From assembly GCA_025677605.1 (NCBI GenBank), contig GCA_025677605.1_4110.1: a stretch of DNA of 64,000 nt. One strand, 5' to 3'. Of this stretch, positions 635 through 53,653 are shown one piece after another. Below the pieces are notes generated by a model. The model searched no databases. It saw nothing but the letters and a program-made list of their open reading frames with translations, and was not told the DNA's origin. A program made the position numbers and the translations under genes. The stretch's first letter is position 1, and each line of letters starts with the position of its first letter. Source of the stretch: a phage.

Positions 635-1248
635 TCAGGTATTACCATATTGTTAATTAGTGTTTCTTTCTTGATGCAATCAGGCTTGATATAAATGAAC
701 ATCTTTCGTAGACTCTTCACTTTGTACCAATCATTCAGTACTGAAACCATAAGCCATAATTCTTCTGGTGTAGTGGTAACCTCTGTGATTACACCCATCT
801 GAAACAATGCACCCTTACAATCTTCAAGTGATTTCAGATCAGTCTTATACCCAGATTCAATATCCATTAGTGTTTTAGTTTTGGCATCATATGTGATGAA
901 CGATTCTTTTAGCGTTTTTCTTCCATCATTTAAGGTTAAAAACACTGGATTACCTGGACTAAACATGCACTCTTCAAATTCAGGAAATAAATCATGTGCT
1001 TCTTCATCATCGTCTTGGGTTAATTCCAGTACTAATTCATCTGTATAGATATTACAAATCCCAACGCTATATCTATTATACAGCGTTGTATATTGTGTGG
1101 GTTTTCCCTTTTTTGATAGCTTGAGTTCACTTTTCGGACCGTACTTGTCAAATAGTGTTTGTTTAGCTCTAATTAAATCTGGTGCAATGTTTAGTAAATC
1201 ACGTAGTGCTTTCTCGTACTTAACATACTCTGTTCTAATGTTAGTCAT
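631..1248 (-). CDS. FQ-family-like protein (diverged)
   Basis: 205 aa ORF in array; weak motif KGALFQMGVI. Confidence 0.5.
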   Translation of the reverse strand: MTNIRTEYVKYEKALRDLLNIAPDLIRAKQTLFDKYGPKSELKLSKKGKPTQYTTLYNRYSVGICNIYTDELVLELTQDDDEEAHDLFPEFEECMFSPGNPVFLTLNDGRKTLKESFITYDAKTKTLMDIESGYKTDLKSLEDCKGALFQMGVITEVTTTPEELWLMVSVLNDWYKVKSLRKMFIYIKPDCIKKETLINNMVIPE

Positions 1249-39832: not shown

Positions 39833-39864
39833 TTTATGTTTCCTTATCAGTAGTTGATGTAAGT

Positions 39865-39892
39865 ATTATACTCGTTTACTTTCTATTGTCAA
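39865..39892 (-). promoter_or_regulatory. sigma70-like promoter (proximal, P2)
   Basis: minus strand TTGACA, 16 nt spacer, TATAAT. Confidence 0.5.
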
Positions 39893-39900
39893 ACTATTTT

Positions 39901-39972
39901 ATCAGGGGAGTTTTTCGTATGTCTTACTCCTGGACTACTTAACGGGGTTACTTGTTTCATTCCCCGTCCTGA
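39901..39972 (-). other. conserved three-stem structured RNA element (leader or small RNA), copy A
   Basis: outer stem ATCAGG/CCTGAT enclosing hairpins GGAGT/ACTCC and ACGGGG/CCCCGT; near-identical copy at 49947-50021. Confidence 0.5.
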
Positions 39973-39980
39973 TGTAAAAC

Positions 39981-40008
39981 ATTATACTTGATTCTAAGTA
40001 CAATGCAA
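39981..40008 (-). promoter_or_regulatory. sigma70-like promoter (distal, P1) reading into structured element
   Basis: minus strand TTGCAT, 16 nt spacer, TATAAT. Confidence 0.5.
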
Positions 40009-48837: not shown

Positions 48838-49110
48838 TTAGTTTTTTAATTCTTTTACTGCATCAGGTGCGACAGAACCATCAATGTATTGAACATCGTT
48901 TTCAACTTCACGGGCGGCATCATTCAGCAGATCAAAATTAAATTCCATTTCTTCCAGATCATCAAAATCAGGCTCATAACCATTAATTGTTGAATAAGTC
49001 CAAGTACCTTTTTCATAAGTCACGACACTTACATCAGGGAAGAAATCTTGCACATGATCCATTGCATCCCGAACCAGTTGATGTGCAGTTGTGATATTTA
49101 AAGTTTTCAT
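48838..49110 (-). CDS. hypothetical protein
   Basis: 90 aa; ATG 49108-49110. Confidence 0.5.
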   Translation of the reverse strand: MKTLNITTAHQLVRDAMDHVQDFFPDVSVVTYEKGTWTYSTINGYEPDFDDLEEMEFNFDLLNDAAREVENDVQYIDGSVAPDAVKELKN

Positions 49111-49203
49111 TTTGTTACCCTTTTAGTGTGAGCGGGGAACCACTCCCCGCCTCGATATAAAGTATTATACGCTTTTAAACTTAGTATGCAAGTACTTTTT
49201 AAA

Positions 49204-49878
49204 TTAATATTCGATTGATTCTACTACGCCATCAATAACATTGAATTGATATTCGTTACCCTCAATCAGTGCCGTAATGTTTTCAGTAGTGAATTGATCC
49301 TCATATGCATTCTCTAAATCACGGTACAACTTGCGGGATAATTCACGAATAGTTTCAGTGAGTAGTTCCTCAAGCTCATTAACTAACGCTTCTTGTTTTG
49401 CGGTTAAATCAGTGTAAGCCGATTCAATGTACCCGCTTACAGTGTTTTCATGCGAGTAGTTGGAGTGAGAACGCTTTACACTCATTGCCAAATCATCTTC
49501 ATTCAGCAGGTGACGGATTGAGCGATACTTAGTTAATGCTCTAACCTTGCGTAAAAACTTCTCAGCGTCAACGTGGTCAGTACTAATTGATGCACCGTCA
49601 CCCTGCGACCAAAAACCACTGAATTGTATTTCAGCGTCATTAATGCCATATTCCGGTAGTACTGTTTCTTTATAGTATTCAATTTCACTTTCAGAAAAAT
49701 AATCGTCGTTTAAGTTTTTTTCACGTTCCCGAACCAGTTCGATAGCTGACGTTTGTTGTTCTGCGTTCAATTCAGAAAAATCCATAACGAAAGTAGTATT
49801 AGTGACAGTTTTCGCTTTGCAACCCTCATTCAATTCAGAAAAATCCATAACGAAAGTAGTAGTAGTGATAGTTTTCAT
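49204..49878 (-). CDS. hypothetical protein with N-terminal tandem duplication
   Basis: 224 aa; 21-aa unit TTFVMDFSELN repeated twice from a 63-bp direct DNA repeat near 49743-49870. Confidence 0.55.
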   Translation of the reverse strand: MKTITTTTFVMDFSELNEGCKAKTVTNTTFVMDFSELNAEQQTSAIELVREREKNLNDDYFSESEIEYYKETVLPEYGINDAEIQFSGFWSQGDGASISTDHVDAEKFLRKVRALTKYRSIRHLLNEDDLAMSVKRSHSNYSHENTVSGYIESAYTDLTAKQEALVNELEELLTETIRELSRKLYRDLENAYEDQFTTENITALIEGNEYQFNVIDGVVESIEY

Positions 49879-49946
49879 TTTGTAACTCTCATTCAGTAGT
49901 TGATGTAAGTATTATACGCTTTTAAAAACAATTGTCAAACTATTTT

Positions 49947-50021
49947 ATCAGGGGAGTTTTTCGTGTGCCTTACTCCTGGGCTACTTAACGGGGAGTTACT
50001 TATTTCGTTCCCCGTCCTGAT
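49947..50021 (-). other. conserved three-stem structured RNA element, copy B
   Basis: near-identical to 39901-39972; flanked by P1 (TTGCAA, 16 nt spacer, TATAAT) and P2 (TTGACA, 16 nt spacer, TATAAT). Confidence 0.5.
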
Positions 50022-50109
50022 GTAAAACATTATACGCCTTTAAACATAGTTTGCAAGTACTTTTTATCAAATAGTTTTCAGTACTGGCATTGTACTTAAT
50101 CACTTTACT

Positions 50110-52587: not shown

Positions 52588-52765
52588 AGCCGTCTATACA
52601 TCCAGACGTGTAACCATCTAGCCATCTAGCCGTCCAAACGTCTAGCAGTACAGCCATCTAGAAATCTAGCCATCTAGAAATCTAGCCATCCAGCCGTCTA
52701 GAGGGATAGCCATCTTTACTTCCAGACTTCTGGAGGGCTAGACATCTCTACGTCCAAAATCCACC
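52588..52765. repeat. CTAG-rich short direct repeat array
   Basis: about a dozen CTAG-containing 8-12 bp units (ccatctagcc, cgtctag, gaaatctagcc) within about 180 bp; no ORF. Confidence 0.6.
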
Positions 52766-53341
52766 CAGGGTTACTACGCCCAAAATCCGTCAGTACTATA
52801 CCATAGATCTATCTTTAAGAAGGGAGTATTCAGTACTGCCATCATAGTCCTCACTATGTTACCCTAGGAGGATGAAGACTATCATGTAGTACTGAATACT
52901 TTTAAGGGGAATATCATCACATTGCGTGATGCATTATATATTAGATTAATATCAGTACTGCTACCATTCTGTTAATAACAGTACTGTTTATATTACGAAA
53001 AAAGAGGTTGTCAAAGATGAACCACTGCATAGGAGGATTCAATCTCTTCTGTACTGTCTCACGACAGGAGGGTTAAGGCTCTGAATTGTTTGCGGCAATT
53101 CATCACTCTATGTAGAACATTATACAGTACTGAATCATAATGTCAATAGATTTCTTCCATTATTCAGTACTGAAAACATATCTTCTGTATCTCTTCAAAA
53201 CTCATTATATCCCACTAATCCTATATGTCCCAATGTAAATTTCAACTTTCGAAGATCCAACTTTTATTTCATAGGTACTCCAAAATTTTTACGATCCAGA
53301 TTTACGATGGAGTACTAACCAACTTTTTGCTGGAGCCTCAA

Positions 53342-53400
53342 GGGGTATTCGGAATTTTCCCCAATGGGTATTCGGGATTTTTGACGAAGGGTAAATTGAA
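53342..53400. repeat. tandem direct repeat GGGTATTCGGAATTTT
   Basis: two adjacent near-identical 18-20 bp units. Confidence 0.5.
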
Positions 53401-53590: not shown

Positions 53591-53653
53591 AATGATTATA
53601 AATGATTACTTAAATGTTTATATATGATTACTTATGACTACCTATGATTACGG
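53591..53653. repeat. ATGATTAC iteron-like repeats
   Basis: 5 copies of ATGATTA(C/T) in 63 bp. Confidence 0.55.

What the first reader, a model, noticed from the sequence alone, without database searches (positions are those of the whole stretch)
49204..49878. In-frame 63-bp tandem duplication at the 5' end of a gene
49743-49800 and 49805-49870 are near-identical direct repeats, giving the duplicated peptide TTFVMDFSELN(E/A) at the N-terminus. This is recent slippage or unequal crossover and may be length-variable.
Basis: seen in the sequence. Interest (0 to 1): 0.35.

Follow-up and report, generated by a model that had tools for sequence, protein, structure and literature searches.

The report
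Old start-region duplication in phage gene
A 63-base head-to-tail duplication at the start of an early gene of a jumbo E. coli phage is real, but it is an inherited allele shared with one other phage, and it adds 21 amino acids to a protein of unknown function, so it is an ordinary if tidy case of gene-start duplication.

Summary
The repeat is real. It is a 63-bp, 2-copy tandem at 49766-49895 on the minus-strand gene 49204-49878, with 61 of 67 positions matching. It is the strongest tandem repeat in the window.

They therefore missed that the unit holds the Shine-Dalgarno sequence, the ATG and the first 15 codons, bounded by a 4-nt TGAA microhomology.

The upstream copy matches the native sequence of related Asteriusvirus jumbo phages. 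The downstream copy carries five private substitutions within 22 nt, including ATG to GCG. Only the upstream start remains, so the product is 224 aa rather than the native 203 aa.

The same allele, with the same five substitutions, occurs in phage vB_Ec-M-J. The rest of that gene differs from the window's (dS 0.09). At least 35 other Asteriusvirus records have one copy. The event is therefore single-origin and not recent, and there is no sign of hypervariability.

The protein (phrog_5162) has no Pfam, PDB or Foldseek-PDB match. It has a perfect sigma-70 promoter and lies about 4 kb inside the terminal repeat. Distant homologues sit in establishment-type neighbourhoods of conjugative plasmids.

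Interest is low: a new example of a known kind of mutation.

The parts
49204..49878 (-). CDS, 224 aa. It is a phrog_5162-family protein with a 21-aa N-terminal extension relative to the 203-aa native form. It is identical to NCBI HCQ0858719.1.
   Evidence: ORF list. phrog_5162 hit at E 7e-80, where residues 25-219 match profile positions 3-198 of 201. Exact-sequence look-up. Relatives are 203 aa.
49833..49895 (-). Repeat unit 1, the 5' copy. It holds TGAA, the Shine-Dalgarno GAGAG (49890-49886), a 7-nt spacer, the ATG (49878-49876) and codons 1-15. The sequence is that of native single-copy relatives and is identical to SHEFM2K. This is the functional translation start.
49770..49832 (-). Repeat unit 2, the 3' copy. 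The former 5'UTR, start codon and codons 1-15 are now read through as residues 16-37 (ELN-EGCK-A-KTVTNTTFVMDFSE). Five private substitutions lie at 49820, 49815, 49814, 49806 and 49799. Position 49824 (G, against A at 49887) is a site that also varies among native alleles.
49813..49815 (-). Former start codon of unit 2, now GCG (Ala22). No internal initiation codon is left at this site.
49766..49769 (-). Trailing TGAA. This 4-nt microhomology also begins each unit (49895-49892 and 49832-49829) and is the likely slippage or crossover point.
   Evidence: In native genomes the two TGAA lie 63 nt apart.
49911..49938 (-). Sigma-70 consensus promoter of the gene, TTGACA-16 nt-TATAAT (12 of 12 matches).
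   Evidence: It is conserved in all relatives.

Best explanation
The window comes from an Asteriusvirus, an E. coli jumbo phage of the PBECO4/121Q/G17 group.

In an ancestor shared by this allele and that of phage vB_Ec-M-J, a single illegitimate event occurred between two TGAA tetranucleotides 63 nt apart. It was either replication slippage or unequal crossover. It duplicated head-to-tail a segment made of 13 nt of 5'UTR with the Shine-Dalgarno sequence, the ATG, and the first 15 codons of an early gene. (The event is inferred from the sequence.)

Because 63 is a multiple of 3 and the UTR has no in-frame stop, translation from the upstream start reads through the second copy. The upstream start is intact and still native. 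(This is shown by the sequence; translation itself was not tested.)

The second copy's former initiation region then lost its constraint. It acquired five substitutions within 22 nt, two of which turn ATG into GCG, so no internal start remains. The only product is a 224-aa protein: the native 203-aa protein with Met1 replaced by Ala, preceded by 21 extra residues (MKTITTTTFVMDFSELN + EGCK).

The extra segment is predicted to be a poorly ordered appendage ahead of a confident core. The gene body remains under purifying selection, so the allele is functional and most likely nearly neutral. It has persisted long enough to sit on two different gene-body backgrounds.

A 33-nt perfect repeat remains between the copies. 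Slippage across it would restore the native single-copy gene exactly, so occasional reversion is possible. (This is inference.)

The protein has unknown biochemistry. It is probably made early from a consensus host-type promoter inside the long terminal repeat. By association with plasmid homologues it probably acts in establishment or counter-defence. (This is a weak inference.)
For: Repeat anatomy:
- Period 63, with 61 of 67 positions matching.
- The unit reads TGAA + SD + ATG + 15 codons. Unit 1 is identical to the native sequence.

Single copy elsewhere:
- The sequence is single-copy in G17, SHEFM2K, Turkey5, PBECO4, TH47, JNE01, CMSTMSU, WPEC3, UE-S1 and 121Q.
- 23 Asteriusvirus records carry the native 43-mer with exactly the 5-6 mismatches expected against unit 2.

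Shared allele:
- The same duplication, with the same five substitutions, is in vB_Ec-M-J in both terminal-repeat copies. It is annotated there as a 675-bp CDS.
- dS is 0.088 between the window and vB_Ec-M-J. It is 0.060 (window) and 0.025 (vB_Ec-M-J) against single-copy G17.
- dN/dS is about 0.1-0.5 across the close comparisons.

Substitution pattern: the substitutions cluster, 5 of 22 nt against 0 of 41 nt (Fisher p = 0.004, with a post-hoc partition).

Protein and expression:
- The family profile starts at residue ~23-25 of the window protein.
- All close homologues are 203 aa and cover 90% of the query.
- The AF2 model has pLDDT 58-68 for residues 1-30 and above 90 for the core.
- The promoter matches the consensus at 12 of 12 positions.

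Context:
- The gene lies at 3.9-4.5 kb inside the 21.5-kb direct terminal repeat of vB_Ec-M-J.
- About 20-kb terminal repeats are reported for the genus (PMC13070987).
- Plasmid homologues lie next to ArdC-like zincin, ParB, SSB, RadC, DUF932, methyltransferase and strawberry-notch helicase genes.
Against: - No transcript, ribosome or protein data exist, so use of the upstream ATG and the existence of the extension are inferred.
- Five substitutions in 22 nt is more than the local divergence would predict. At dS of about 0.06-0.09, roughly 1-2 are expected. Plain neutral decay may therefore be insufficient. Selection against an internal start, or a single complex mutational event, cannot be excluded.
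- Only two carriers are known. The order of events (duplication first, substitutions later) cannot be proved, and no intermediate allele was found.
- The functional inference rests on three plasmid neighbourhoods, one fusion protein and an unverified annotation name.
Confidence: 0.75

Rival explanations
1. This is an adaptive N-terminal extension. The duplication was kept because the longer protein, or the loss of the short isoform, is advantageous, for example by altering activity, stability or recognition by a host defence. On this view the cluster of changes that destroys the internal ATG was driven by selection.
For: - Five substitutions fall within 22 nt that are invariant in every native allele examined. 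That includes 121Q, whose gene body is at dS 0.72.
- ATG to GCG needs two hits.
- The allele persists on two different gene backgrounds despite a 33-nt repeat that could revert it.
Against: - Only 2 of about 40 genomes carry it.
- The extension is modelled with low confidence.
- Once the patch stopped serving as an initiation region it was free to drift.
- No phenotype data exist.
Confidence: 0.15
2. This is the first reader's view: a very recent slippage event in this isolate, at a length-hypervariable (contingency-like) site.
For: - The architecture is tandem, with a microhomology at the junction.
- An independent, perfect 77-bp out-of-frame duplication lies in the same 5' segment of the gene in phage BAU.Micro_ELP-22. 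This shows the region can duplicate.
Against: - The copies are 9.5% diverged.
- An identical diverged allele is found in vB_Ec-M-J.
- No allele with 3 or more copies and no pristine 2-copy allele was found in phage records, complete E. coli genomes, IMG/VR, metagenome contigs or GTDB genomes.
Confidence: 0.05
3. This is rescue of a damaged allele. The start region of the gene first mutated (ATG to GCG and neighbouring changes). Illegitimate recombination with a wild-type co-infecting phage then placed an intact initiation region in front of it.
For: Unit 1 is exactly wild type, while unit 2 carries all the changes. Asteriusvirus genomes are highly mosaic in this region.
Against: - A gene without a start would be expected to decay throughout. 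Yet the body keeps every family-invariant residue and has a low dN/dS.
- No single-copy allele with the mutated start exists in any collection searched.
Confidence: 0.04
4. This is an assembly or sequencing artefact.
For: The window's protein is known from a single third-party-annotated E. coli assembly contig of 351,638 bp.
Against: The same junction and the same substitutions occur in an independently sequenced phage. Diverged copies are not what collapse or expansion errors produce.
Confidence: 0.01

Closest known systems
Native 203-aa orthologues in Asteriusvirus (e.g. G17_00049 / QBO61545.1, PBECO4 gp274 / YP_009150588.1; PHROG family phrog_5162)
   Same: Same locus, promoter, 5'UTR and gene body. 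Amino-acid identity is 88-95%, and the invariant SGFWSQGDGAS and YSHENT motifs are kept.
   Different: The window's allele has 21 extra N-terminal residues from the 63-bp duplication, and Met1 of the native protein has become Ala22.
EcMJ_006 / EcMJ_602 of Escherichia phage vB_Ec-M-J (WGM49249.1, 224 aa)
   Same: Identical duplication, junction and five unit-2 substitutions.
   Different: The Shine-Dalgarno sequence of unit 1 is GAGGG instead of GAGAG. The gene body differs at 15 of 579 compared sites (dS 0.088). The record annotates it only as a hypothetical protein.
Microhomology-mediated tandem duplications from replication slippage or illegitimate recombination, as long known in phage and bacterial genes (textbook knowledge, recalled from memory and not tested here)
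   Same: Head-to-tail copies with no spacer, a short direct repeat (TGAA) at both ends of the unit, and absence from close relatives.
   Different: This one spans the ribosome-binding site and the start codon. It therefore created two tandem initiation regions, and the inner one has since been erased.
Phase-variable or contingency repeat loci
   Same: A repeat at the 5' end of a gene whose copy number differs between isolates.
   Different: The unit is 63 bp, not 1-9 bp. Only states 1 and 2 are seen, the copies have diverged, and both states are in frame.
Plasmid homologues named 'antitoxin of toxin-antitoxin stability system' by RefSeq (e.g. WP_131389690.1 on Haematobacter pOT1-2)
   Same: The same domain over about 96% of its length at about 32-34% identity to a distant family member (P0116). 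They sit in gene sets typical of DNA that enters a cell first (see PMC11541004 on leading regions).
   Different: They are distant in sequence, and no HMM in Pfam or NCBIfam supports the name. No toxin partner was seen next to them, and there is no N-terminal duplication.

Membership tests
Microhomology-mediated in-frame tandem duplication | Two head-to-tail copies with no spacer and high identity | tested here: met
   TRF period 63, 2.1 copies, 91% matches, no indels. 61 of 67 positions match in register.
Microhomology-mediated in-frame tandem duplication | A short direct repeat flanks the unit in the unduplicated sequence | tested here: met
   TGAA occurs 63 nt apart in every native allele and at both unit starts and the end of the array.
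Microhomology-mediated in-frame tandem duplication | Derived state: close relatives have one copy | tested here: met
   Ten sequenced relatives have one copy of this unit (ELP22 too, though it carries a different 77-bp duplication). 23 records carry the native 43-mer. The junction is found in only one other phage record.
Microhomology-mediated in-frame tandem duplication | Reading frame preserved | tested here: met
   63 = 21 codons. There is one ORF of 224 aa, and the core aligns to the family over its whole length.
phrog_5162 protein family | Significant full-length match to the family profile | tested here: met
   E 7.4e-80, with residues 25-219 matching profile positions 3-198 of 201.
phrog_5162 protein family | Family-invariant residues retained (G88 F89 Q92 G93 D94 G95 A96, H143, Y185, L188, E199) | tested here: met
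   Alignment of 36 members. A profile search finds 8,758 clusters at E<=0.001.
Phase-variable contingency locus | Many copy-number states among close isolates | tested here: not met
   Only 1 or 2 copies are seen. There is no other junction in six collections.
Phase-variable contingency locus | Copy-number change switches expression or frame on and off | tested here: not met
   Both states are in frame with an intact start.
Phase-variable contingency locus | Within-population heterogeneity in reads | not testable with these tools
   No read data are available.
Toxin-antitoxin antitoxin (the RefSeq name of the plasmid homologues) | Match to a curated antitoxin model | tested here: not met
   No Pfam or NCBIfam hit for the window protein, for distant members or for the plasmid protein.
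Toxin-antitoxin antitoxin (the RefSeq name of the plasmid homologues) | Adjacent cognate toxin gene | tested here: not met
   The phage neighbours are unrelated small genes of unknown function, each with its own promoter. No toxin is annotated beside the three plasmid homologues examined.
Early or establishment (anti-defence-type) gene of incoming DNA | Host-type promoter and a position in the first-entering or terminal region | tested here: inconclusive
   A consensus sigma-70 promoter is present, and the gene lies inside the direct terminal repeat. Timing of expression and order of DNA entry were not tested.
Early or establishment (anti-defence-type) gene of incoming DNA | Demonstrated inhibition of a defence system | not testable with these tools
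   No PADLOC or structural match suggests a target.

The most novel reading that the evidence does not exclude
The duplication is a selected change and not a passive scar. On this reading, doubling the initiation region and then erasing the inner start created an obligatory N-terminally extended isoform of a widespread but uncharacterised early protein, one shared by phages and plasmids. The extra copy of the conserved N-terminal strand motif (FVMDFSELN) would alter assembly, stability or recognition by a host defence. The allele would then have spread between Asteriusvirus lineages by recombination.
Probability: 0.12. Interest if true: 0.4.

Novelty: new member of a known kind. Interest (0 to 1): 0.2.

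Why it matters
In itself it matters little. It is one more in-frame tandem duplication in a hypothetical phage gene, and the allele is already in a public phage record, though not commented on there.

It is a clean natural example of what happens when a translation-initiation region is duplicated. The outer copy stays frozen, while the inner copy, invariant everywhere else in the genus, changes at five positions and loses its ATG.

It also gives a ready-made natural variant pair (203 aa and 224 aa) for anyone who studies this large family. The family has about 8,800 clusters at 50% identity, no Pfam entry and no solved structure. It appears in phage terminal repeats and in establishment-type regions of conjugative plasmids.

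Tried and rejected
- **Other carriers of the junction.** I searched IMG/VR, metagenome contigs, GTDB genomes, complete E. coli genomes and phage records. Only vB_Ec-M-J carries it.
- **A donor for the unit-2 variant** (gene conversion or import). There is none in the window at up to 3 mismatches and none in phage records.
- **An mRNA-structure explanation.** I folded the native, pristine-duplication and actual leaders. Accessibility of the functional SD/AUG is unchanged (0.46-0.47). Only the dead inner site becomes somewhat more paired (0.45 to 0.31), so this is not informative.
- **Function by sequence or structure.** Pfam, NCBIfam, PADLOC, a PDB profile search and Foldseek against the PDB all gave nothing. 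BFVD gave only uncharacterised phage proteins.
- **Exact-protein contig look-up** returned nothing, although the sequence is in the collection.
- **Rfam and tRNA scans** of the neighbourhood found nothing.
- **A literature search** for duplicated initiation regions in phages returned nothing specific.

Full report
**1. The observation**

The region holds a minus-strand ORF at 49204-49878 of 224 aa, beginning MKTITTTTFVMDFSELNEGCKAKTVTNTTFVMDFSELNAEQQ.

- Tandem Repeats Finder reports one array at 49766-49895: period 63, 2.1 copies, 91% matches, no indels, score 218.
- A register scan gives 75 matches at offset 63 against 29-34 at neighbouring offsets. The two copies match at 61 of 67 aligned positions.
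- It is the strongest tandem repeat in the 64-kb window.

The repeat is therefore real and far beyond chance.

On the gene strand the units are 49895-49833 and 49832-49770, followed by TGAA at 49769-49766.

**2. Anatomy**

On the gene strand the array reads:

[TGAA TGAGAGTTACAAA ATG AAA ACT ATC ACT ACT ACT ACT TTC GTT ATG GAT TTT TCT GAA T] [TGAA TGAGGGTTGCAAA GCG AAA ACT GTC ACT AAT ACT ACT TTC GTT ATG GAT TTT TCT GAA T] TGAA CGC...

- Each unit holds 13 nt of 5'UTR with the Shine-Dalgarno sequence (GAGAG/GAGGG, 7 nt before the start), the start codon and 15 codons.
- The unit begins with TGAA, and the array ends with TGAA. In unduplicated relatives these two TGAA lie 63 nt apart. This is the signature of slippage or unequal exchange at a 4-nt microhomology.
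- A perfect sigma-70 promoter (TTGACA-16-TATAAT, 49938-49911) lies just upstream.

**3. Where the window comes from, and what relatives show**

The region is 86-98% identical to Asteriusvirus jumbo coliphages such as G17, PBECO4 and 121Q. The exact protein is NCBI HCQ0858719.1, from a 351,638-bp contig in a third-party-annotated E. coli assembly.

In relatives the gene is a 612-bp CDS of 203 aa. All close homologues among 5.8 billion protein clusters are 203 aa and cover 90% of the query. The PHROG profile starts at residue ~23-25 of the window protein.

Direct comparison shows one copy in G17, SHEFM2K, Turkey5, PBECO4, TH47, JNE01, CMSTMSU, WPEC3, UE-S1 and 121Q.

Unit 1 of the window is identical to the native sequence of SHEFM2K. 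Unit 2 carries five private substitutions, all within 22 nt:

| Window position | Change in unit 2 |
|---|---|
| 49820 | TTACAAA to TTGCAAA |
| 49815, 49814 | ATG to GCG |
| 49806 | ATC to GTC |
| 49799 | ACT to AAT |

A sixth difference between the units (49887 A against 49824 G) is a site that also varies among native alleles.

That 22-nt patch is invariant in all twelve native sequences read. This includes 121Q, whose gene body is at dS 0.72 from the window. 23 further records match unit 2 with exactly the 5 or 6 mismatches expected of the native sequence.

**4. The allele is shared, so it is not recent**

Phage vB_Ec-M-J (OQ718158.1) has a 675-bp CDS (EcMJ_006, repeated as EcMJ_602 in the other terminal repeat). 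It has the same junction and the same five substitutions.

It is the only other carrier found. The searches covered 50,697 phage records, complete E. coli genomes, IMG/VR, metagenome contigs and GTDB genomes.

The two carriers are not each other's nearest relatives in the gene body:

| Comparison | dS |
|---|---|
| Window vs vB_Ec-M-J | 0.088 |
| Window vs G17 (single copy) | 0.060 |
| vB_Ec-M-J vs G17 | 0.025 |

The duplication therefore arose once. It has since either outlived that divergence or been moved by recombination onto another background. dN/dS is about 0.1-0.5 across the close comparisons, which shows the gene is still under purifying selection.

No pristine duplication (inner ATG intact) and no allele with three copies was found.

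**5. Consequence**

The inner ATG is now GCG, and no Shine-Dalgarno sequence precedes Met11 or Met32. The only credible start is therefore the ATG at 49878. The product is the native protein with Met1 replaced by Ala, preceded by 21 residues: 17 duplicated residues plus EGCK, which is translated from the former UTR.

An AlphaFold2 model built with a 36-sequence alignment has mean pLDDT 88.7. Residues 1-30 score only 58-68 and are modelled as a hairpin. The core from about residue 31 scores above 90.

The family alignment shows that the hydrophobic-x-F-x-E-L motif at the native N-terminus is conserved. The extension thus carries a spare copy of a structural motif. What that does is unknown.

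A 33-nt perfect repeat remains between the units. Slippage across it would restore the native gene exactly, so low-level reversion is plausible. This was not tested.

**6. Why five changes in 22 nt?**

The clustering is marked: 5 of 22 nt against 0 of 41 nt (Fisher p = 0.004, with a post-hoc partition). It also exceeds the 1-2 changes expected from local synonymous divergence. Three readings remain open:

- release of constraint on a sequence that no longer serves as an initiation site, which I favour;
- selection against internal initiation;
- one complex mutational event.

A donor for the variant was sought and not found. mRNA folding gave no useful signal.

**7. What the gene is**

- Pfam, NCBIfam, PADLOC, a PDB profile search and Foldseek against the PDB all gave nothing.
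- BFVD returned only uncharacterised phage proteins.
- The family is nevertheless very large. A profile search found 8,758 clusters at E<=0.001 among 1.84 billion representatives. It has invariant SGFWSQGDGAS and YSHENT motifs.
- One 1,479-aa member carries the domain downstream of a Fic domain.
- In plasmids, distant homologues are named 'antitoxin of toxin-antitoxin stability system'. No Pfam or NCBIfam model supports that name.
- In three of three plasmid loci examined, the homologues sit among establishment-type genes: ArdC-like zincin, ParB, SSB, RadC, DUF932, PD-(D/E)XK nuclease, methyltransferase and strawberry-notch helicase. Such regions are known to be rich in anti-defence functions (PMC11541004).
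- In the phage, the gene lies about 4 kb inside the ~21-kb direct terminal repeat (PMC13070987). It sits among small genes of unknown function, several of them with a promoter-like site just upstream.

I therefore guess an early establishment or counter-defence role, with low confidence.

**8. Verdict**

It is wrong on 'recent', and there is no evidence of hypervariability.
- This is a new example of a well-known kind of mutation, so interest is low.

Noticed in passing
window 49893-50060 (minus strand); second copy at 39847-39987: The intergenic region upstream of the gene has two tandem sigma-70-like promoters. They bracket a conserved segment of about 90 nt that folds modestly better than shuffles (-22.3 kcal/mol, z = -2.1). 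It is 87% identical to an unannotated intergenic region of the unrelated phage muut (Justusliebigvirus). It recurs in the window at 90% identity in front of a different 91-aa gene. There is no Rfam match. It could be a small RNA or a mobile promoter/stem-loop cassette.
   Followed up: partly
L004 (Escherichia phage BAU.Micro_ELP-22, OR699282.2), locus about 930-1090, minus strand: The same gene carries an independent, perfect 77-bp tandem duplication a few codons further in. It is out of frame, so the record annotates two short CDSs. It is either a real disruptive duplication or an assembly error.
   Followed up: partly
window 52588-52756, 53339-53393, 53591-53634: Clusters of short-period tandem repeats are present, for example CCATCTAG x11. 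Some lie close to the position (about 53.4-53.6 kb) that maps to the boundary of the direct terminal repeat, i.e. the physical genome end, of vB_Ec-M-J. They could be packaging or terminus signals.
   Followed up: partly
window about 49879-49960, compared with L005 (phage 121Q): The promoter, the 5'UTR and the first 11 codons of the gene are identical between the window's unit 1 and 121Q (apart from the polymorphic site 49887), although the rest of the gene is at dS 0.72. This suggests either very strong constraint or a recombination boundary just inside the gene's 5' end.
   Followed up: partly
window 48838-49110 (minus strand) and the flanks of the target gene: There is gene-content mosaicism. 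The 90-aa ORF downstream of the target gene has no PHROG match and is shared only with G17, Sharanji and Turkey5. Many relatives carry about 490-550 extra bp somewhere within the compared stretch (window 49130-50086), apparently upstream of the target gene and probably holding the small 231-bp CDS annotated there (e.g. EcMJ_005 in vB_Ec-M-J).
   Followed up: no
L015-L017 (plasmids NZ_CP035512.1, NZ_CP132304.1, NZ_CP061499.1); P0170: Distant homologues of the protein on alphaproteobacterial plasmids are named 'antitoxin of toxin-antitoxin stability system', with no supporting HMM. They lie among ArdC-like, ParB, SSB, RadC, DUF932, methyltransferase and strawberry-notch genes. One 1,479-aa protein fuses the domain to an N-terminal Fic domain. 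The family has about 8,800 clusters at 50% identity and no Pfam entry.
   Followed up: partly
L010 (Escherichia phage CMSTMSU, MH494197.1): The orthologue is broken by several single-base indels in a record flagged UNVERIFIED_ORG. This is probably a matter of sequence quality and not biology.
   Followed up: no
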